NCBI RefSeq assembly: GCF_965223225.1
Contig: NZ_CBDCVU010000004.1
Coordinates: 1,147,584-1,179,583, forward strand
Reading direction: 5' to 3'
Length of the DNA: 32,000 nucleotides
From: Nitrosopumilus sp.
Lineage (GTDB): Archaea > Thermoproteota > Nitrososphaeria > Nitrososphaerales > Nitrosopumilaceae
Below the pieces are notes generated by a model, which saw nothing but the letters and a program-made list of their open reading frames with translations, had not been told where the DNA came from and made no database searches. A program made the translations under genes and the position numbers. Positions 11,584 to 30,337 of this stretch are shown here, one piece after another; positions within the stretch are counted from its first letter, which is position 1; the number at the start of each line of letters is the position of its first letter.

Positions 11584-12147
11584 CTATGGGATTGCTCTAC
11601 TGTACAATTTGCCTTCTAGGGCCATCTTGTACATTTCTGCAACATATGGATTCTCACCAGGAGTCTCTGCACCTAATTCTACGAGTCTAGCATATACTCT
11701 GACTACGTATGCAAGTGCACCCATGAATGCTACTACAACACCCATGTTAAACATCCAGTGATTTGGTACTGCAAAGATTTCCTCTACAAACCAGAAGTGC
11801 CACATCTCATTGACTCCAATTGTAAACATGGTTGCAAGGTAACCAAGAATAGTCATCTTCAAACCAGTGTTCATTGAGTTATTTGGACCTCTGAGAACTG
11901 GTACTTTTCTATCATAGATTGCTGCTGCTCCCCATCCAAGTGGTAATGCAACAAAGTGGGAATACAGCCACCAGTGTGCTGGTGTAAATGCACTGTCTCT
12001 GATAGAAGTTTGGTGTAGAGAACCATCAACGAAGTTATCTACTTCGACTGATGCTGCAGTTGACCCCATAGCAATAACGATGAGCCAGATTTTCTTTAGT
12101 CTCTGAATCTCAACTTCTTTTGGGATTAATGCGGGCATCTGTGCCAT
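11584..12147 (-). CDS. amoC: Ammonia monooxygenase subunit C (archaeal AmoC)
   Basis: The 187-aa polytopic membrane protein MAQMPALIPKEVEIQRLKKIW...HWWLYSHFVALPLGWGAAA...NEMWHFWFVEE...NHWMFNMG matches archaeal AmoC as I remember it from Nitrosopumilus, including the conserved D/H/H metal-site context. Confidence 0.9.
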   Translation of the reverse strand: MAQMPALIPKEVEIQRLKKIWLIVIAMGSTAASVEVDNFVDGSLHQTSIRDSAFTPAHWWLYSHFVALPLGWGAAAIYDRKVPVLRGPNNSMNTGLKMTILGYLATMFTIGVNEMWHFWFVEEIFAVPNHWMFNMGVVVAFMGALAYVVRVYARLVELGAETPGENPYVAEMYKMALEGKLYSRAIP

Positions 12148-17014: not shown

Positions 17015-17041
17015 AAAAACTCGTGTTATTGTAAAGTTGTT

Positions 17042-17135
17042 GGACCGGTCGTCTAGTTTGGTTTGGATGACGCACTCACACTGCGTAAGGAATCAATTCC
17101 CGCAAAGGTCGTGGGTTCAAATCCCATCCGGTCCA
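17042..17135 (+). tRNA. tRNA-Val (anticodon CAC) with a 19-nt non-canonical intron in the variable loop
   Basis: Folded by hand. Acceptor GGACCGG/CCGGTCC. D arm GTCT-AGTTTGGTTT-GGAT. Anticodon arm ACGCA-CTCACAC-TGCGT. T arm GTGGG-TTCAAAT-CCCAT. Discriminator A. The extra 17088..17106 is excisable from a bulge-helix-bulge fold and leaves the variable loop AGGTC. Confidence 0.7.
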
Positions 17136-17513
17136 TATCCCAAATTAGGATTAAAAAAGACGCATGCGTAATCAACGCCATAATTTCTAAAAAAATAGGC
17201 TTAGTTTATTATTAATTTACAAAAATTTTCATGTTGAAGGTACGGACCATAGCAGGTCCACACCATGTGGAAATCCTGAAAAGATAAAGTTTGTAATTGA
17301 TAGAAAACATGTCAAAATAGAACAAGTTCAGTAAATATTTTGGATTCAGTTTCAAATGTAAACTCGGTGAAGAATTAAATAGTAATTTGCAGAATATTGT
17401 TTGATGGCTACCGTAACATCTCCACCGCTTCCAAAAGATGTAAAGAACTCTAAAATGGTTGAGGAAGTAAAAGAGATGATAGACGAGGATCTAGAGCTAT
17501 TTGAGAAACTGGC

Positions 17514-25217: not shown

Positions 25218-26699
25218 ATGAAAAATAAAATAGTGCCGATTAGTATGTTGGTTATTTTATGTAGCATTGGATTCACCAATCTTTCTTATGGTCAGGATTC
25301 TCAAATATCCGGAGGAGTTGATGTTGACGGTACCTGGTATCTGGGCGAAGGTCTAGAGGTAGGAAATTATTTTGAGTATTCTTTATGTGAAATAAATCTC
25401 AATGACTGTTCCCCTATTGAATTGAAAATGTGGATAAAAGGGGAGATACAAAATATCAGTGAAACGTTGTGGGATGCAAAAGTTGTGATTATCGATGGGG
25501 ATAAAATCGCTAAAGGGTCTTGGGGTCTTGGTAAAACTACTCCGGATCCCATAGTATTTGATGAGGATCTTTTTGATTATGTCATTGCAATCAAGTCTTC
25601 ATTAAATTGGCTTTCTGCTTTTGCTTCTGCAAATGAAGATGATAGACTTCATGGGCCACAAGAATTTAGATCGGGCAAATGGGGTAATATTGGTAATTTT
25701 GGGAGCGGCAGTGATGCGCCATTAATCCCACATAGAATAGAAACAATAGATTCTGTTATTGGAAATGTGGATGCCGTGGTTGTTGGCTGGTATGTTGAAA
25801 CTGACAACGAAATGTGGATAGTAGATGGTTTTCCTTTTCCTGTTAAAGCATTGACGTATCCCAGGACTAATGCTGAGAACCCTCCAATACAGTATCAATT
25901 CACCTTGTTAAATTATGAGAAAAATGTGACAAATGATCCTTTCAAGGACGTAAAAGAAACAATTCAAAAAGAAGAGTTGTTGGAGTGTCCTACAAAGTTT
26001 TATGACTATGTAAGTCAACGCGATGCTACAGATACATATTCCATGATGATTCAACATAACTATTCTCCAGAATATCCAACTGAAGGCTGCAGTATTGACT
26101 GGAAAATAAATTTCGTCAGCAGGTATAATGATCGTGAAATTCTAGATCAGATTCATTACGATGTTTTGGTTTTAGATGAGCAAGGTAACAAATTGAGATC
26201 ATATGCACAAGAAATCGGAGAAGAGAAACTGTTTACTGACTTTGGTAGAGTTGACCATCTCATTCCAATAAAAGAAGAAGCAGGAATTGTAAATTATTCC
26301 ATATTTGTTTACGGTACAGGACCAGAAGAAGAGAAACCTGACGTGTCCATGAGTGGATCTGTTATTATTGAAATTGAGATTGAGGAAAACCCTCTACTTG
26401 AAAAATTAAATGATGATTTTATCTCGACCCCAGATATTCCTACGTGGATAAAGAACAATGCTGGATGGTGGGCAGATGGACAAATTGATGACAATGCATT
26501 TGTTCAAGGCATACAATTCCTAGTCAAAGAGGGCGTCATTCAAATTCCAGACACTGTCCAATCTACAACTGAAACCACACAAGAAATTCCTGCATGGATA
26601 AAGAACAATGCTGGATGGTGGAGTCAAGGATTGATTTCAGATGATGATTTTCTAAAGGGAATTGAGTTTATGGTTAAAAATGGAACAATCAAAATATAG
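25218..26699 (+). CDS. Secreted protein with two C-terminal ~40-aa WIKNNAGWW repeats
   Basis: Signal peptide MKNKIVPISMLVILCSIGFTNLSYG. The ~390-aa N-terminal region is unrecognised. The C-terminus is a tandem IP-[TA]-WIKNNAGWW-x-x-G-x-I-x-D-x-x-F-x-x-GI-x-F-[LM]-VK-x-G-x-I repeat. Confidence 0.7.
   Translation: MKNKIVPISMLVILCSIGFTNLSYGQDSQISGGVDVDGTWYLGEGLEVGNYFEYSLCEINLNDCSPIELKMWIKGEIQNISETLWDAKVVIIDGDKIAKGSWGLGKTTPDPIVFDEDLFDYVIAIKSSLNWLSAFASANEDDRLHGPQEFRSGKWGNIGNFGSGSDAPLIPHRIETIDSVIGNVDAVVVGWYVETDNEMWIVDGFPFPVKALTYPRTNAENPPIQYQFTLLNYEKNVTNDPFKDVKETIQKEELLECPTKFYDYVSQRDATDTYSMMIQHNYSPEYPTEGCSIDWKINFVSRYNDREILDQIHYDVLVLDEQGNKLRSYAQEIGEEKLFTDFGRVDHLIPIKEEAGIVNYSIFVYGTGPEEEKPDVSMSGSVIIEIEIEENPLLEKLNDDFISTPDIPTWIKNNAGWWADGQIDDNAFVQGIQFLVKEGVIQIPDTVQSTTETTQEIPAWIKNNAGWWSQGLISDDDFLKGIEFMVKNGTIKI
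26445..26621 (+). repeat. Exact 27-nt direct repeat (26445..26471 and 26595..26621) inside the CDS
   Basis: TGGATAAAGAACAATGCTGGATGGTGG occurs twice, 150 nt apart. It encodes the WIKNNAGWW core of both protein repeats. Confidence 0.85.
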
Positions 26700-26990: not shown

Positions 26991-27743
26991 ATGCCAGAAG
27001 ATAATGAAAAGTCTCTCCCAAAAGACTCTGATTCAGATTATAGCCTACCAGGCAGGCTGGAGGAGAGTAATTCAGAATATTTTGAGATACAGCCTGCCGA
27101 ATCCAAATCAAAAAGCAGGACTATCTTGATACTTGCTGCTGCTTTTGTGATTGTTTCATCAGGATTCTTTTCATATTATTTTATCAACCAAGACGATATT
27201 GATTCAAGGATAATTCAGAACATGAACAGCGTTGATCCTGAGAGAAGTTTGGTAAATCAGTATGGTGTTGGGGAATATGGAAGTGATCATGCACATGCTG
27301 CAATCGCAGTTTTTGTAGACGGTGAGCAAGTAAATTTTGGCCTTCGCCAGTTCCAGCTTTCAAGCAAATACATACACTTTGAGGACCACAACCCATACAT
27401 GATTCACAAACATGCAACAGGAGTTCCATTAGACATGTTGTTTACATCATTGGGATTGAAGATTACCACTGAATGTATAATGATGAGTTATGGGGAATCA
27501 CCATCAAAGTCCAAAATTAACAGTTTTTGTGAGGACAAAGACAATCCTCTGTTGTTTTATCTTAATGGGGAAAAATATCGTGCAGACATTTCACAATATG
27601 TTATTGAACATGGTGACAGAATACTGATTTCCTATGGAGATACTAAATCCATTCCAAAATATCTTGCATATTTAGAATCATTAGAGATTTCGGATGTTCC
27701 TAAAAAGACTCCCCGATATTCGGAAAATGAGATATTTGTCTGA
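26991..27743 (+). CDS. Membrane-anchored extracytoplasmic protein with conserved His motifs
   Basis: An acidic N-terminus, one TM segment (ILILAAAFVIVSSGFFSYYFI), then GSDHAHAAIAVFVDGEQVNF...IHFEDHNPYMIHKHATG...FYLNGEKY...GDRILISYGD. This resembles an uncharacterised family (H-x-H ... vnG ... H-x-H-d...G-x-iH ... vNG ... gD-x-I) seen in archaea and Gram-positive bacteria. Confidence 0.55.
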   Translation: MPEDNEKSLPKDSDSDYSLPGRLEESNSEYFEIQPAESKSKSRTILILAAAFVIVSSGFFSYYFINQDDIDSRIIQNMNSVDPERSLVNQYGVGEYGSDHAHAAIAVFVDGEQVNFGLRQFQLSSKYIHFEDHNPYMIHKHATGVPLDMLFTSLGLKITTECIMMSYGESPSKSKINSFCEDKDNPLLFYLNGEKYRADISQYVIEHGDRILISYGDTKSIPKYLAYLESLEISDVPKKTPRYSENEIFV

Positions 27744-27821: not shown

Positions 27822-28022
27822 ATGTCATATGATGAAGTATGTCCCATATGCCACAAATCACAAGAACAACACAATGCTGAAGAAAAGAACACCTGCAATT
27901 CAGAACTTGTAAAGCAAGGGATCATGAGGTATTGCAGCATATGCGGTCTAACAAAGCCTGCAAAGGGCTTGAAAGACAGGTGTGCAAAATGCGGAGAAAA
28001 GTATTCTTTTTCAAATTATTAG
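27822..28022 (+). CDS. Small zinc-ribbon protein
   Basis: 66 aa with CPIC, CSIC and CAKC pairs. Confidence 0.45.
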   Translation: MSYDEVCPICHKSQEQHNAEEKNTCNSELVKQGIMRYCSICGLTKPAKGLKDRCAKCGEKYSFSNY

Positions 28023-28528
28023 ACAAGAATTTAAAAATCTCAAGAAGAACAAATGCACAAGATTCACCGGCTATCTACAAAATTTGTGAAAATAAAGAAG
28101 ATAAGACAAAATACACGGAACAATAATTGATTCAGACAAGAGATATCAAAACAAAATGACAATAATTTGAATAATATATCAATAACTTTATAGTTAAATC
28201 AATAAATTCTTATTATTTGTCATAATAAGTCTGGGAAATCCCTTATATTTGTTAAACACTAACTAATATCAGAGAAAAATGTCTTGGGTGGTTCGATGTC
28301 CGACACATGGTAAAGTGATCACAGAATACCGATGTGAAGGAATGACACAATTGGAAAAACACAGTAAAGAGGAGAGAGTCTTCTATGAGGCTTGCTATCT
28401 TTACGAAGATCGGGATATCTGATGATGTGAATCTATTGGCTGGATCTTTTTTCTGATGATAGGCATTCTTCTCGCAATTTTATTTTCTGATTATAGATAA
28501 ACCACATTATTTGAAAACTAGGACAAGC

Positions 28529-28957
28529 ATGAGAAAGCTGCACATCATAATCATAGGGATTTTAATACCTGTTGCATTTTTTGGGATAATGACTCTCATA
28601 TTGGCAGTCAACATCAGTGAGGCAAATTCCAATTCAGATAGGTGGATGATAGAGTTAGAACCTCATCTAAATCTATCAGATGGCCAGTTATTTTTCCAGA
28701 TGCAAGAAGAAGACATAAAGGAATTGTATCTATATCGAGTAGTCACCTTGGAGCATTATGTTGAAACATTAGAGCATATCATCAATGTAGAGTTTGAAGA
28801 AGGATTCAACCTCAAAGACAGATTTGTATTTTTAATTGATAAGAATTCAGGATACTCAAAAGAACAGATACAAGAAATCATTACAGATGCAAACGGAATC
28901 AGAGATGCAGAATATCTCAATGACTGGTTGTTGGCGCCATTAAGGTCAGAAGGTTAA
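28529..28957 (+). CDS. Hypothetical N-terminally membrane-anchored protein
   Basis: MRKLHIIIIGILIPVAFFGIMTLILAV is a TM anchor or signal anchor. The remainder is not recognised. The ATG at 28529 is preferred over the TTG at 28511. Confidence 0.45.
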   Translation: MRKLHIIIIGILIPVAFFGIMTLILAVNISEANSNSDRWMIELEPHLNLSDGQLFFQMQEEDIKELYLYRVVTLEHYVETLEHIINVEFEEGFNLKDRFVFLIDKNSGYSKEQIQEIITDANGIRDAEYLNDWLLAPLRSEG

Positions 28958-29012
28958 TTTTCAAAACAACTAGTTTTACAATCATCATTGGCAAATTTGC
29001 TAATTTTTTAAT

Positions 29013-29039
29013 TGTTAACAAATGTTAACAGTGTTAGCA
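29013..29039. promoter_or_regulatory. Three tandem TGTTAACA-type boxes upstream of the Hcp-like gene
   Basis: TGTTAACA (29013..29020), TGTTAACA (29023..29030) and TGTTAGCA (29032..29039) are spaced 10 and 9 nt apart, 36-62 nt upstream of ATG 29075. Confidence 0.4.
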
Positions 29040-29074
29040 CAGAGCCTATATGCTAAGCCTCTTTGATTTTTATA

Positions 29075-29632
29075 ATGACAATGCAAAACAAGACCAGAAA
29101 TATTCTCTTAATGTCTGCCATCAGCGTTCTTGCTGCTGCGGCAATCCCACATGCTGATGCTGCAATATACATGAAGATTGGAGACATAGAAGGAGAGTCT
29201 ACAGATGACAAACACATAGGATGGATAGAGCTTGATTCATTCAAATGTGGAGTTGACAACACTACGAAAAAAAAATCCGGTGAAAGAAGAGGAACTGCCG
29301 ATATCAATATAGGCGTTGGAGAACTACAAGAGTGCACCATCTCAAAGAGTACAGATTCTGCCAGTGCACAGCTTGCACAATTTGCAATTAATGGAAACTC
29401 ACTAGGTACTGCTGAAATCGATTTTGTCGAGGTTGCAGGGGGAAGTGAGTCAGGAGAGCCAATAACATATCTCAAATACAAACTAGACCGGGTATTTATC
29501 AAAAGCTGGAGTACCTCAGGAGATGCAGATGACAGGCCTACTAAGGAAGTAGCCTTTTACTATAACAAGATTGGATTTGCATACACTCCTCAAGGCGAAG
29601 ACCGTCCAACACCAAGCAACATAATGTCATGA
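29075..29632 (+). CDS. Hcp (type VI secretion tube protein, DUF796) family homolog with an N-terminal Sec signal peptide
   Basis: After M(T)MQNKTRNILLMSAISVLAAAAIPHADA the sequence is AIYMKIGDIEGESTDDKHIGWIELDSFKCGV ... ISKSTDSASAQLAQFAINGNSLGTAEIDFV ... YLKYKLDRVFIKSWSTSGDADDRPTKEVAFYYNKIGFAYTPQ. It is collinear with the Hcp1 consensus (MFLKI.G.KGES.D..H..WI.V.S.SWG ... K..D.ASP.L......G......A.L ... YL...L..V.VSS.S.SG.....P.E.V.L.F.KV...Y.PQ). Confidence 0.8.
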   Translation: MTMQNKTRNILLMSAISVLAAAAIPHADAAIYMKIGDIEGESTDDKHIGWIELDSFKCGVDNTTKKKSGERRGTADINIGVGELQECTISKSTDSASAQLAQFAINGNSLGTAEIDFVEVAGGSESGEPITYLKYKLDRVFIKSWSTSGDADDRPTKEVAFYYNKIGFAYTPQGEDRPTPSNIMS

Positions 29633-29797
29633 GATAATGTAAAGAACATTTCTTGGGATACATTTTTGGATCCAATTAGAGACGCATTTTTCCCACAAAG
29701 AAAGTAAAATAACTTCCAAGAATTTCAATTCTTTTTCTTTTTTGTATTACTAGCCATCGAAACTGCTTTAGATCATAATATCAGTGTAAAAAAAGAA

Positions 29798-30142
29798 TCA
29801 TACTTCGCCTATAACCATGTATGATATTTCTTCTATAGTACTATGTTTGCCAGCAGACCAAGTAATTTTCAGTCTTTGTTTGTTTACATAATCCCCAATT
29901 TTGAATTTCTCCAAAGAAGAAGGTCCGCCAACTGCAGGCGCAACAACAGTTTGCACTTTGATTTGTCTTAATGCCACCATCTTTGTTGGAACCTTTTTGA
30001 AATTGCCTTCAGGTCCGAGTGTCTTTTTTTCGACCACATCCCCATCAGAAGTATGCTCAATTGCATGATCATCAAACATTACTTTGATGTATCCGTTTTG
30101 TTTTGAAGGAATGACTATTCCAGACATGATTTTTAATACCAT
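29798..30142 (-). CDS. Hypothetical beta-rich small protein
   Basis: ORF of 114-115 aa (possible starts at ATG 30142 or 30127). No recognised motif. It is convergent with the Hcp-like gene. Confidence 0.45.
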   Translation of the reverse strand: MVLKIMSGIVIPSKQNGYIKVMFDDHAIEHTSDGDVVEKKTLGPEGNFKKVPTKMVALRQIKVQTVVAPAVGGPSSLEKFKIGDYVNKQRLKITWSAGKHSTIEEISYMVIGEV

Positions 30143-30337
30143 CAATTAAAAAAAAGAAAACTAGGTTTTATGTATTGCATTACGAGTTATAGATTTCAGA
30201 TTCAAGATTTGAGTTTTCGTATCTCAGTGTTTTCAACTAATTCCAGTAATTCTTTGAGGATGACCCCAATTCTTGCTTCAATTGATTCAGATAGTCTCTC
30301 CCCAGTCAATGACTTTATCTTGTTGCTTTCTAGCAGG

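What the first reader, a model, noticed from the sequence alone, without database searches (positions are those of the whole stretch)
29075..29632. Sec-signal-bearing homolog of the T6SS tube protein Hcp in an ammonia-oxidising archaeon
The mature part of this ORF is collinear with bacterial Hcp over its whole length: AIYMKIGDIEGESTDDKHIGWIELDSFKCGV; ISKSTDSASAQLAQFAINGNSLGTAEIDFV; YLKYKLDRVFIKSWSTSGDADDRPTKEVAFYYNKIGFAYTPQ. Canonical Hcp starts directly with the M-x-x-D-M-F-L-K-I strand, has no signal peptide and polymerises in the cytoplasm inside the TssBC sheath. This protein is instead preceded by a textbook Sec signal: the basic n-region MQNKTRN, the h-region ILLMSAISVLAAAAI, and the A-x-A site HADA|A. 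Nothing else in the window resembles T6SS or contractile-injection components (no sheath, VgrG/spike, PAAR, baseplate, TssM/ClpV). To my knowledge canonical T6SS has not been described in archaea. An Hcp ring exported through Sec would have to work outside any contractile machine, for example as an extracellular ring, pore, chaperone or adhesin. That would be a previously undescribed use of this fold and a likely inter-domain transfer.
Basis: partly seen in the sequence, partly recalled or inferred. Interest (0 to 1): 0.8.

Follow-up and report, generated by a model that had tools for sequence, protein, structure and literature searches.

The report
Sec-exported Hcp tube-protein homolog in archaeon
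An ammonia-oxidising archaeon carries the tube protein (Hcp) of the bacterial type VI secretion "nano-syringe", fitted with an ordinary export signal and with no syringe genes nearby, so the ring-forming protein was probably borrowed from bacteria for a job outside the cell; the copy in this window is cut short by a recent stop-codon mutation.

Summary
ORF 29081-29632 (+) is a full-length Hcp domain: Pfam PF05638 E=1.7e-27; all 50 listed Foldseek PDB matches are Hcp chains or Hcp fusions. A 27-residue Sec/SPase-I leader precedes it. The window is archaeal and ammonia-oxidising (187-aa AmoC, 96-nt tRNA-Val call) and holds no T6SS gene.

What is new:
- The protein belongs to a tight Hcp subfamily ("DINIGVGE...FYYNKIAF"). 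Its leaderless members sit in complete Planctomycete T6SS clusters or in VgrG/FHA islands.
- About 85 distinct homologs carry a leader ending A-x-A exactly at the first Hcp strand. They occur in archaea (Nitrosopumilaceae, Woesearchaeota), Gammaproteobacteria and Verrucomicrobia. None of 9 leader-bearing loci has T6SS genes within 10 kb, against 16 of 22 leaderless loci.
- Some archaeal copies are fused to a C-terminal repeat shared with other exported archaeal proteins.
- The gene evolved under purifying selection (dN/dS about 0.11). The window allele, however, has TGG->TGA, which removes a conserved 24-residue tail, and a sister strain has a 644-bp deletion allele.

Best reading: a horizontally acquired Hcp repurposed as a Sec-exported protein that works without T6SS. 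Its function is unknown and it is variably lost in this population. This is a new variant of a known kind. Whole-genome absence of contractile systems and actual export were not testable.

The parts
29081..29632 (+). Coding sequence of the pre-protein (183 aa plus TGA). An alternative in-frame ATG at 29075 adds Met-Thr.
   Evidence: The n-region is conserved in homologs (MTKTxNLL...) and one of three leader differences against L084 is a synonymous change within it.
29081..29161 (+). Predicted Sec/signal-peptidase-I leader, residues 1-27: n-region MQNKTRN, h-region ILLMSAISVLAAAAI, c-region PHADA, with cleavage A27|A28.
   Evidence: The h-region has mean KD 2.56 and is the only hydrophobic segment. 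The model shows a helix at residues 2-19. In 85 distinct homolog leaders, Ala is at -4 in 85% and at -2 in 89% relative to strand 1, 80% have a net positive n-region, and the median apolar run is 18. The cleavage point coincides with Met1 of leaderless homologs. All 3 changes against L084 are synonymous.
29168..29584 (+). Complete Hcp (PF05638) domain, residues 30-168.
   Evidence: Pfam E=1.7e-27 over profile 1-129/129; PDB phmmer; Foldseek.
29237..29356 (+). Subfamily-specific beta-hairpin and long loop (SFKCGVDNTTKKKSGERRGTADINIGVGELQECTISKSTD). Its core 'GGTxDINIGVGELQE' is nearly invariant in the subfamily and also occurs as a portable motif in unrelated proteins, many with signal peptides.
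   Evidence: Invariant columns G71-L82; low-confidence loop at residues 59-74 in the model; motif outside Hcp domains.
29630..29632 (+). Premature stop: TGA where all homologs have Trp (TGG) in the conserved 'MSWDNVKN' motif. It is a single G->A change.
   Evidence: Protein alignment. DNA alignment with the closest relatives L084 (95% nt identity) and L085 (98%), both TGG.
29633..29707 (+). Ancestral C-terminal tail, now untranslated: 24 in-frame codons DNVKNISWDTFLDPIRDAFFPQRK plus TAA. It is almost identical to the intact tail of the relatives.
   Evidence: 0 synonymous and 2 non-synonymous differences against L084; one, P->S, is unique to the window.
29729..29744 (+). T-rich run (ttctttttcttttttg) downstream of the ancestral stop, a candidate archaeal oligo-T terminator. 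This is inference only.
   Evidence: Sequence. It is conserved in L084 and L085. The bacterial-type terminator scan found nothing.
29046..29074 (+). A/T-rich upstream region with TATA-like elements (ctatatgc at 29046-29053; tttttataa at 29066-29074), a candidate archaeal promoter for a leaderless or short-leader mRNA. This is inference only.
   Evidence: Sequence. It is conserved in L084 and lies within the 644-bp stretch deleted in L085.

Best explanation
The gene encodes a member of the Hcp/TssD tube-protein family that has been uncoupled from the type VI secretion machine and converted into an ordinary Sec-exported protein. SHOWN: (1) It is a complete Hcp domain. (2) It belongs to a compact subfamily whose leaderless members are the tube genes of Planctomycete T6SS clusters. 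(3) In archaea, some Gammaproteobacteria and Verrucomicrobia, a classical n-h-c signal peptide with an A-x-A site is fused so that cleavage would expose exactly the first Hcp beta-strand. (4) Leader-bearing copies are never next to T6SS genes. (5) In some Nitrosopumilaceae-type genomes an Hcp copy with its own leader is fused through a linker to a C-terminal two-helix repeat, and that repeat also ends other signal-peptide proteins such as a zinc metalloprotease. (6) The gene evolved under purifying selection, leader included. INFERRED: The gene entered Nitrosopumilaceae by horizontal transfer from bacteria. The pre-protein is translocated unfolded by SecYEG and cleaved by signal peptidase I. 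The ~156-residue mature protein (~180 in intact alleles) folds outside the membrane, in the pseudo-periplasm, at the S-layer or in the medium, and probably assembles into the hexameric rings typical of the fold. There it would act as a scaffold or binding ring and not as a projectile. In this genome a very recent TGG->TGA mutation removes the conserved 24-residue C-terminal tail, and a sister strain has lost the promoter, the leader and 72 codons by deletion. The locus is therefore dispensable or is being lost or varied in this population.
For: Hcp identity. Archaeal ammonia-oxidiser host: the 187-aa AmoC is 95-99% identical to abundant metagenome sequences and 72% to Nitrososphaera evergladensis AmoC; the tRNA-Val call is 96 nt long; homolog contigs carry MCM, RFC, eIF-6 and Cdc6. 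Subfamily and its T6SS roots: L030 (Pirellulaceae SH501) has TssA-TssB-TssC-Hcp-Hcp2-ImpE-TssE-TssF-TssG-ClpV, and 16 leaderless loci have T6SS, VgrG or FHA genes within 10 kb. Leader; at least 85 distinct leaders share A-x-A|A-I-Y-V-K. Uncoupling: 0 of 9 leader-bearing loci against 16 of 22 leaderless loci have T6SS genes nearby, Fisher p=2.5e-4. The loci are not phylogenetically independent, so this p-value is only indicative. Extracellular module fusions: P0064, P0080, P0083 and the second Hcp copies of L008 and L082. The repeat is also in window 25218-26699, in the L083 metalloprotease and in L081. Selection: dN 0.021, dS 0.196; in the leader 3 synonymous and 0 non-synonymous changes. Sporadic archaeal distribution against broad bacterial distribution. 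Non-syntenic insertion sites. Allelic decay.
Against: No signal-peptide predictor, proteomics or localisation data were available, so export and cleavage are inferred from sequence features. Ring or oligomer formation was not modelled (monomer only, pLDDT 67.5). The window covers 32 kb, and a contractile system elsewhere in the genome cannot be excluded. Phage-type sheath homologs have been reported in some Thaumarchaeota (PMC9230969). The NJ tree interleaves archaeal and bacterial sequences and does not resolve the direction or number of transfers. The window allele is truncated and may be non-functional. The TGA could also be a sequencing or assembly error.
Confidence: 0.72

Rival explanations
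1. Decaying relic: the gene was acquired horizontally, has no role in this organism, and is on its way to becoming a pseudogene. On this view the leader and the conservation reflect its history in other lineages.
For: The window allele has a nonsense mutation at a conserved Trp. Sister strain L085 has a 644-bp deletion removing the promoter, the leader and 72 codons. The gene is rare among archaeal species representatives.
Against: dN/dS is 0.11 between the window and L084, and the leader is fully conserved with only synonymous changes. The Pfam domain (residues 30-168) is intact upstream of the stop. Many distinct intact leader-bearing homologs exist in archaeal contexts. The nonsense change is very recent, because the tail is still about 97% identical at the DNA level. 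Loss-of-function alleles are also typical of surface proteins under negative frequency-dependent selection. This rival concerns the window allele only and is compatible with the main explanation at family level.
Confidence: 0.3
2. Ordinary cytoplasmic Hcp serving a contractile machine encoded elsewhere in the genome. On this view the N-terminal extension is a gene-calling artefact or an uncleaved sequence with no role in export.
For: Hcp genes are often orphan and lie far from the core T6SS cluster in bacteria (general knowledge). Sheath homologs have been reported in some Thaumarchaeota (PMC9230969). Only 32 kb of the genome is visible.
Against: The first in-frame Met after the leader (M31) lies inside strand 1, and most homologs have no Met there (IYVKIPG). 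The leader is conserved as a signal peptide in at least 85 distinct sequences while its primary sequence varies. It is under purifying selection. No T6SS gene lies near any of 9 leader-bearing loci. Hcp-repeat fusions share their C-terminal module with other signal-peptide proteins. A hydrophobic N-terminal helix would be incompatible with packing into the sheath lumen (inference).
Confidence: 0.05
3. Membrane-tethered Hcp: the N-terminal hydrophobic segment is an uncleaved signal-anchor, so the Hcp domain is displayed on the outer face of the cytoplasmic membrane instead of being released.
For: The h-region (15 aa in the window, median 18 in homologs) is at the long end for signal peptides. 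No cleavage predictor or N-terminal sequencing was available.
Against: Small residues at -3 and -1 (A-x-A) are conserved at 85-89% across otherwise divergent leaders, and a helix-breaking Pro/Gly or polar c-region precedes them. This is the signature of signal-peptidase-I cleavage. The predicted mature N-terminus equals the N-terminus of leaderless homologs. Some lineages add a separate C-terminal retention module, which would be redundant if the N-terminus anchored the protein.
Confidence: 0.1
4. Bacterial contamination or a chimeric assembly: on this view the Hcp gene is not really archaeal.
For: The closest annotated relatives outside the clade are bacterial, at 60-66% identity to Planctomycete Hcp.
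Against: The gene is embedded in archaeal sequence on both sides in the window (AmoC, a 96-nt tRNA-Val call, Endo_dU). The same is true on independent contigs from different samples, including a 1.8-Mb contig and contigs of 528, 215 and 80 kb with MCM, RFC, Cdc6 and eIF-6. GC content (0.35) matches the surroundings. Two near-identical strain contigs share the flanks.
Confidence: 0.02

Closest known systems
T6SS tube protein Hcp/TssD (Pfam PF05638; e.g. EvpC 3EAA, P. aeruginosa Hcp1 1Y12)
   Same: Same domain over its full length, the same fold, and the canonical N-terminal 'GESTDDKH.GWIEL.SF' motif (alignment).
   Different: It has a cleavable-type Sec leader, whereas canonical Hcp is leaderless and polymerises in the cytoplasm inside the TssBC sheath (general knowledge). 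It scores below the NCBIfam TIGR03344 cutoff (38.5 against 58.9 bits). It has a long subfamily-specific loop and a 'WDNVKNxxW' C-terminal extension. No T6SS genes are nearby. The host is an archaeon.
Planctomycete T6SS Hcp of the same subfamily (e.g. Pirellulaceae SH501 locus L030; VgrG/FHA-linked copies L006, L012, L013, L017, L034)
   Same: 46-66% identity; shared 'DINIGVGE', 'YLKYKLDR.F.KSWS.SGDADDRPTEEVAFYYNKIAF' and 'WDN' motifs; a second divergent Hcp paralog lies directly downstream in many loci of both kinds.
   Different: Those copies are leaderless and sit inside TssA-B-C-Hcp-Hcp2-ImpE-TssE-F-G-ClpV clusters or next to VgrG/FHA genes. The window gene has a leader, stands alone and is archaeal.
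Hcp with C-terminal extension domains ('Hcp-ET' type effectors; recalled from the T6SS literature, not tested here)
   Same: The archaeal homologs P0064, P0080, P0083 and the second Hcp copies of L008 and L082 have the same architecture: an Hcp domain followed by a linker and an extra C-terminal module.
   Different: The extension is not a toxin. It is a tandem two-helix repeat found on other exported archaeal proteins. These proteins carry Sec leaders. The window protein itself has no extension.
Phage tail-tube and eCIS tube proteins
   Same: They belong to the same structural superfamily of ring-forming tube proteins (general knowledge). The window protein matches a PHROG of unknown function (phrog_27303, E=1.3e-13).
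   Different: No member of this subfamily was found on 2.9 million viral contigs. The neighbours have no viral or defence hallmarks. Sequence affinity is to T6SS Hcp, not to phage tube families.

Membership tests
Hcp domain family (Pfam PF05638 T6SS_HCP) | Whole-protein score above the curated gathering threshold, with full-length profile coverage | tested here: met
   96.7 bits against a cutoff of 23.5, E=1.7e-27, profile positions 1-129 of 129.
Hcp domain family (Pfam PF05638 T6SS_HCP) | Hcp beta-barrel fold with a single helix | tested here: met
   The AF2 model shows a strand-rich core with one helix at residues 93-104. All 50 listed Foldseek PDB matches are Hcp chains or Hcp-fusion constructs, probability 1.00.
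Functional T6SS tube protein TssD (NCBIfam TIGR03344) | Score at or above the curated NCBIfam cutoff | tested here: not met
   38.5 bits against a cutoff of 58.9.
Functional T6SS tube protein TssD (NCBIfam TIGR03344) | Leaderless cytoplasmic protein (no signal peptide) | tested here: not met
   A 27-residue n-h-c leader with an A-x-A site is conserved in at least 85 homologs.
Functional T6SS tube protein TssD (NCBIfam TIGR03344) | Genomic association with the sheath (TssB/C), baseplate (TssE/F/G/K), VgrG/PAAR and ClpV | tested here: not met
   None is found in the 32-kb window or within 10 kb of 8 other leader-bearing loci, but they are present at 16 leaderless loci. The rest of the genome could not be examined.
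Functional T6SS tube protein TssD (NCBIfam TIGR03344) | Assembly into hexameric rings that stack into a tube | not testable with these tools
   Only monomer prediction was available.
Sec/signal-peptidase-I secretory signal peptide | Positively charged n-region, hydrophobic h-region of about 7-15 or more residues, and small residues at -3 and -1 | tested here: met
   The window has K4/R6, a 15-aa h-region of mean KD 2.56, and A25-x-A27. Across the family, 80% have a net positive n-region, the median apolar run is 18, and Ala is 85% and 89% at the two site positions.
Sec/signal-peptidase-I secretory signal peptide | Demonstrated cleavage and export, or a dedicated predictor score | not testable with these tools
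   No SignalP or DeepSig and no proteomics were available.
'DINIGVGE / FYYNKIAF' Hcp subfamily (defined here) | Invariant loop 'G-T-x-D-I-N-I-G-x-G-E-L' and C-terminal strand 'P-T-x-E-x-x-F-Y-Y-N-x-I', followed by 'W-D-N' | tested here: met
   43 invariant columns across 18 archaeal and bacterial members. The W of the 'WDN' motif is replaced by the TGA stop in the window.

The most novel reading that the evidence does not exclude
Sec-exported Hcp is the building block of a previously unrecognised extracellular assembly that needs no sheath. Free leader-bearing Hcp rings would stack on, or associate with, a surface-retained Hcp paralog (Hcp plus linker plus two-helix repeat, as in L008 and L082). 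Other proteins would dock to this scaffold through portable Hcp-derived peptide tags, namely the near-invariant 'KESGEKGGTEDINIGVGELQE' hairpin and the strand-1 and last-strand motifs. These tags occur in Marinicaulis mini-proteins, in CPR PKD-domain proteins, in PEP-CTERM proteins, and at the N-terminus of an RHS-repeat toxin with a signal peptide. This would be a Sec-dependent, Hcp-based surface structure or toxin-display system shared by archaea and by bacteria that lack T6SS.
Probability: 0.12. Interest if true: 0.9.

Novelty: new variant of a known kind. Interest (0 to 1): 0.62.

Why it matters
Hcp is considered diagnostic of type VI secretion, and genome annotation pipelines name these archaeal proteins "T6SS tube protein". 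This work shows a large, conserved clade of Hcp proteins that carry Sec signal peptides and are never linked to T6SS genes. The clade occurs in ammonia-oxidising and DPANN archaea, and bacterial members carry the same type of leader. That would mean the tube-protein fold has a second life outside the contractile machine. Three consequences follow:
1. It warns against inferring T6SS from Hcp hits in metagenomes.
2. It documents an inter-domain transfer into an ecologically dominant archaeal group.
3. It gives a tractable test: express the ~156-180-aa mature protein and look for rings or tubes and for binding partners, to learn what an extracellular Hcp ring does.

The portable hairpin motif on other proteins, several with predicted signal peptides, including an Rhs toxin, hints at a wider interaction network.

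Tried and rejected
- **Literature.** Seven full-text searches on Hcp with archaea, Thaumarchaeota, Nitrosopumilus, signal peptide, Planctomycetes and CIS found nothing on leader-bearing Hcp in archaea. Boyer 2009 reports SignalP/TMHMM runs on the selected T6SS-locus proteins, but the passages read say nothing about leaders on Hcp.
- **Window 25218-26699 as a second Hcp.** It clustered with the Hcp proteins only through its C-terminal repeat and is not an Hcp.
- **Conserved partner genes.** None is shared across archaeal, gammaproteobacterial or Acidimicrobiia loci. The only recurrences are the second Hcp paralog in some loci and loose microsynteny with a 250-aa membrane protein in L081.
- **Viral or defence-island origin.** No subfamily member occurs on viral contigs. 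The neighbours give only two marginal PHROG hits to families of unknown function (E=0.0017 and 0.0063) and no PADLOC hits.
- **Bacterial promoter/terminator scan.** It was uninformative for an archaeon.
- **Model of the Hcp-repeat fusion P0064.** Overall pLDDT was 40.5, so no fold search was run. Only the two helical hairpins were confident.
- **NJ tree.** Branches are too short and interleaved to infer the direction or number of transfers.
- **Antisense ORF 29053-29502.** It is conserved only as the shadow of the Hcp frame.
- **P0313 (2478 aa).** This hit from the hairpin search is a low-identity Ig-like repeat protein and probably a false positive.
Full report
**1. The observation**

The + strand ORF is real. 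The ORF listing gives 29063-29632 from a TTG. In-frame ATGs lie at 29075 and 29081 (MQNKTRN...), and the stop is TGA at 29630-29632.

The Hcp homology is strong:
- Pfam PF05638 (T6SS_HCP) matches residues 30-168 over the whole 129-position profile, with E=1.7e-27 and 96.7 bits against a gathering cutoff of 23.5.
- phmmer against PDB sequences gives EvpC (3eaa) at 1.3e-17 and further Hcp entries.
- An AlphaFold2 model built on an 18-sequence alignment is moderate (pLDDT 67.5, pTM 0.63). It shows an N-terminal helix at residues 2-19 followed by a strand-rich core with one helix.
- All 50 listed Foldseek PDB matches are Hcp structures or Hcp-fusion constructs, with probability 1.00.
- The stricter NCBIfam TssD model TIGR03344 scores only 38.5 bits against a cutoff of 58.9.

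So the protein is a member of the Hcp domain family, but not a typical TssD.

**2. Host and surroundings**

The window encodes housekeeping genes (purN, folD, purD, IleRS, sucCD) and a 187-aa AmoC. It also holds a 96-nt tRNA-Val call, long enough to suggest an intron. GC content is about 0.35 throughout.

The AmoC is 95-99% identical to abundant metagenomic sequences and 72% identical to Nitrososphaera evergladensis AmoC. The host is therefore an ammonia-oxidising archaeon.

No T6SS or contractile-injection gene is present, either by Pfam or by phmmer with Planctomycete TssA/B/C/E/F/G, ClpV, ImpE, VgrG and FHA proteins as queries. The neighbours of the Hcp gene have no PADLOC matches and only two marginal PHROG hits to families of unknown function.

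**3. The family**

A search of 5.8 billion proteins returned 744 hits. The best 120 form a compact subfamily at 55-95% identity. It has near-invariant motifs: GGTxDINIGVGELQE, YLKYKLDRxFxKSWSTSGDADDRPTEEVAFYYNKIAF, and a C-terminal WDNVKNxxW.

A scan of one genome per GTDB species found 74 loci:
- Strong matches are mostly Planctomycetota (Pirellulales), with Acidimicrobiia, Acidobacteriota and Gammaproteobacteria.
- Weaker or partial matches come from CPR and other bacteria.
- Only three archaeal species representatives carry a full-length copy (Nitrosopumilus sp., a Nitrosopumilaceae archaeon, a Woesearchaeote), plus one Nitrosopumilaceae locus (L075) that carries only the hairpin motif.

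In Pirellulaceae SH501 (L030) the subfamily member lies inside a complete T6SS cluster: TssA, TssB, TssC, Hcp, a second Hcp, ImpE, TssE, TssF, TssG and ClpV. Five other loci share much of this array.

A second group, 60-66% identical to the window protein, lies 4-6 kb from a VgrG-like gene and an FHA/DUF6931 gene.

The subfamily is therefore rooted in genuine T6SS tube proteins.

**4. The leader**

Among the genome-derived loci, N-terminal extensions with signal-peptide character occur in:
- all archaeal copies (window, L001/L007, L008, L009);
- three gammaproteobacterial copies (L020, L026, L027);
- Verrucomicrobia (P0082, Haloferula; P0098 has the same leader type, taxon not stated).

Planctomycete, Acidimicrobiia and Acidobacteriota copies start directly at M-(A)-I-Y/F-V-K-I-P-G. 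A few Planctomycete copies instead carry the 'LExRxLMAxD' motif.

Of the 120 closest database relatives, 89 have an extension of at least 18 residues starting with Met, giving 85 distinct leaders. In these:
- Ala occupies position -4 in 85% and position -2 in 89%, relative to the first strand residue. This gives A-x-A|A-I-Y-V-K.
- 80% have a net positive n-region.
- The median uncharged run is 18 residues.

In the window the h-region ILLMSAISVLAAAAI has a mean Kyte-Doolittle value of 2.56. It is the only hydrophobic segment of the protein.

The predicted cleavage point coincides with the initiator Met of leaderless relatives. The leader is therefore an add-on that leaves the Hcp domain intact.

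Between the window and its 95%-identical relative L084, the 27 leader codons differ by three synonymous and no non-synonymous changes. One of the three lies in the n-region, which supports translation from 29081 or 29075 rather than from the ATG at 29111 that a gene caller chose for P0001.

**5. Uncoupling from T6SS**

phmmer with ten T6SS queries against every ORF of the window and 85 fetched loci found T6SS genes within 10 kb at 16 leaderless loci. It found none at any of 9 leader-bearing loci of at least 17 kb (window, L001, L008, L009, L020, L026, L081, L082, L083). That is 0/9 against 16/22, Fisher p=2.5e-4. The loci are not independent samples, so the p-value is only indicative.

The archaeal contigs are unmistakably archaeal (MCM, RFC, eIF-6, Cdc6, proteasome). 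The gene sits at a different place in each. This is consistent with a mobile accessory gene. No subfamily member was found on viral contigs.

**6. Further evidence for an extracellular location**

In L008 and L082 a second Hcp copy follows directly. It has its own Sec leader, a Ser/Asp/Lys-rich linker and two copies of a ~35-residue repeat (IPxW[IV]Kxx[AT]xWWxxGx[IV]xDxxFxxGIx[FW]L[IV]KxxII). P0064, P0080 and P0083 have the same architecture.

The same repeat ends other signal-peptide proteins:
- the window's 493-aa ORF 25218-26699 (two copies);
- a zinc metalloprotease with an HEFGHALGLGH motif in L083;
- further proteins in L008 and L081.

The repeat matches no Pfam or NCBIfam model. The two repeat copies are the only confidently modelled parts (block-mean pLDDT about 57-84), and each is predicted as a two-helix hairpin. 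I read it as a retention or interaction module of exported Nitrosopumilaceae proteins. This is inference.

**7. State of the gene in this window**

All homologs continue past the window's stop as ...MSWDNVKNIPWDTF[LV]DPIR[DE]...K. The window has TGA where the two closest relatives (L084, 95% nt identity; L085, 98%) have TGG. The next 24 codons and the TAA at 29705-29707 are still in frame and nearly identical.

L085 is collinear with window 27924-28646 and 29291-30325. It therefore carries a 644-bp deletion that removes the 3' part of ORF 28511-28957, the promoter region, the leader and the first ~72 Hcp codons.

Over the longer term the gene was constrained: dN=0.021 and dS=0.196 against L084. 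Within one species-level population there is thus an intact allele, a nonsense allele and a deletion allele. This means either recent loss of function or the allele turnover expected for an exposed surface protein. A sequencing error at the TGA cannot be excluded.

**8. Mechanism**

*Shown:*
- an Hcp fold;
- a conserved signal peptide of the SPase-I type;
- no linkage to T6SS genes;
- fusion to modules of exported proteins;
- purifying selection.

*Inferred:*
- horizontal acquisition from bacteria;
- SecYEG translocation and cleavage at A27|A28;
- folding and ring formation outside the membrane;
- a scaffold or binding role rather than a projectile role.

A hydrophobic leader and co-translocational unfolding are incompatible with cytoplasmic polymerisation inside a sheath. 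Function must therefore differ from that of canonical Hcp. What the ring binds or builds is unknown.

**9. An unexpected lead**

The subfamily's hairpin (SFSFGVEREM-KESGEKGGTEDINIGVGELQE-CTISKSxD) occurs almost unchanged outside Hcp domains:
- Marinicaulis mini-proteins consisting of a signal peptide plus one or two hairpins;
- small Dehalococcoidia, Chloroflexia and Burkholderiaceae proteins;
- CPR proteins, some with PKD domains, that also contain copies of strand-1-like (FLKLGGVKGE) and last-strand-like (LNFEKIK) peptides;
- Planctomycete proteins with PEP-CTERM-like ends;
- a Nitrosopumilaceae protein (L075) that also carries one copy of the W..W..G..D..F repeat, near its N-terminus;
- five to six tandem copies at the N-terminus of a 2122-aa RHS-repeat ORF segment (L067) that begins with a predicted signal peptide.

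A phmmer search with the window's 48-residue hairpin against 1.84 billion representatives found 117 hits at E<=1e-3. Many have the hairpin in several copies or at unusual positions. Several are mosaics with VgrG-like, Rhs-core-like or metallopeptidase-like (HELTH) sequence motifs. Some of these metagenomic ORFs may be assembly chimeras.

The meaning is unexplained. One possibility is that the hairpin is a docking or assembly tag for Hcp rings.

**10. Comparison and novelty**

The protein is a member of the Hcp domain family. It fails three defining features of a functional T6SS tube protein: the NCBIfam cutoff, leaderless cytoplasmic status, and gene linkage. Ring and tube formation are untested.

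Public databases already hold homologs auto-named 'type VI secretion system tube protein Hcp [Nitrosopumilus sp.]'. Seven literature searches found no description of leader-bearing Hcp or of Hcp in ammonia-oxidising archaea.

I rate it a new variant of a known kind, with interest 0.62. A T6SS or archaeal cell-surface specialist would be surprised by a large Sec-dependent Hcp clade. The function is still unknown, however, all the evidence is computational, and the copy in this window is a truncated allele.

Noticed in passing
window 29237-29356; loci L043, L049-L053, L055, L057-L060, L063, L066, L067, L070-L072, L074-L076, L078, L079; proteins P0241-P0354: The ~21-residue loop 'KESGEKGGTEDINIGVGELQE' (with its flanking strands) of this Hcp subfamily occurs nearly unchanged as a portable, sometimes tandemly repeated motif. 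The carriers are otherwise unrelated proteins of many phyla, several with predicted signal peptides. They include Marinicaulis mini-proteins, CPR PKD-domain proteins, PEP-CTERM proteins and the N-terminus of a 2122-aa RHS-repeat ORF segment (L067). The C-terminus of L067 also carries repeats resembling the first strand of CIS tube proteins (weak PF19266 hit). The meaning is unknown.
   Followed up: partly
window 25218-26699 (+), repeats at about aa 405-445 and 455-493; also L008 5915-8413 and 10642-11484, L081 8903-9805, L082 10606-11532, L083 14624-15868, L075: An uncharacterised ~35-aa repeat (IPxWIKxxAxWWxxGxIxDxxFxxGIxFL[IV]KxGxI), predicted as a two-helix hairpin, lies at the ends of signal-peptide proteins of Nitrosopumilaceae-type archaea. 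The carriers include Hcp fusions and a zinc metalloprotease. It matches no Pfam or NCBIfam family. It is possibly a surface-retention module.
   Followed up: partly
L085 versus window 28647-29290: A sister strain (98% nt identity) has a clean 644-bp deletion. It removes most of ORF 28511-28957, the intergenic region and the first ~72 codons of the Hcp gene. Together with the window's nonsense allele, this points to population-level loss or variation at this locus.
   Followed up: yes
window 26991-27743 (+) and L081 8124-8843: A 250-aa protein with one predicted transmembrane segment and a conserved 'GEYGSDHAHAA...HFE.HNPY..HKHA' motif is 56% identical to a gene lying ~1.2 kb from the Hcp gene in another archaeal contig. 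This is the only microsynteny seen around archaeal copies. It has no family assignment.
   Followed up: no
window 11584-12147 (-): The amoC gene stands alone between IleRS and small ORFs. No amoA or amoB was recognised among the 20 larger window ORFs scanned with Pfam. It is probably one of the extra, unlinked amoC copies known in ammonia-oxidising archaea (general knowledge).
   Followed up: no
window 17041-17136 (+): ARAGORN calls a tRNA-Val(CAC) gene of 96 nt. That is longer than a standard tRNA and suggests an intron, which would fit an archaeal genome.
   Followed up: no
L015, L019, L022, L024 (Ilumatobacter / Acidimicrobiia); L004; L021: Leaderless members of the subfamily occur in Acidimicrobiia (actinobacteria, normally monoderm) and elsewhere, with no T6SS gene within 10 kb and no conserved neighbours. 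How a leaderless Hcp would be used there is unclear.
   Followed up: partly
L018, L028, L032, L036; P0041, P0050, P0101, P0241, P0243, P0302, P0338: Some Planctomycete copies carry the 'LExRxLMAxD' planctomycete-extracellular N-terminal motif instead of a Sec leader. Several metagenomic ORFs are scrambled mosaics: duplicated Hcp segments fused to sequences resembling the VgrG N-terminus or an Rhs-core end ('DPxGL'). They may be real recombination products in hcp-vgrG islands or assembly chimeras.
   Followed up: no
L006, L008, L009, L011-L013, L016, L023, L025, L029-L031, L033, L034, L054, L082: A second, much more divergent Hcp paralog (about 180-310 aa) lies immediately downstream of the subfamily Hcp in many bacterial and some archaeal loci. 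This suggests an ancestral two-Hcp cassette. The window lacks the second copy.
   Followed up: partly
window 29053-29502 (-): A 149-aa antisense ORF overlaps the Hcp gene. Its apparent conservation in many loci is only the mirror of the conserved Hcp frame, so it is not a gene.
   Followed up: yes
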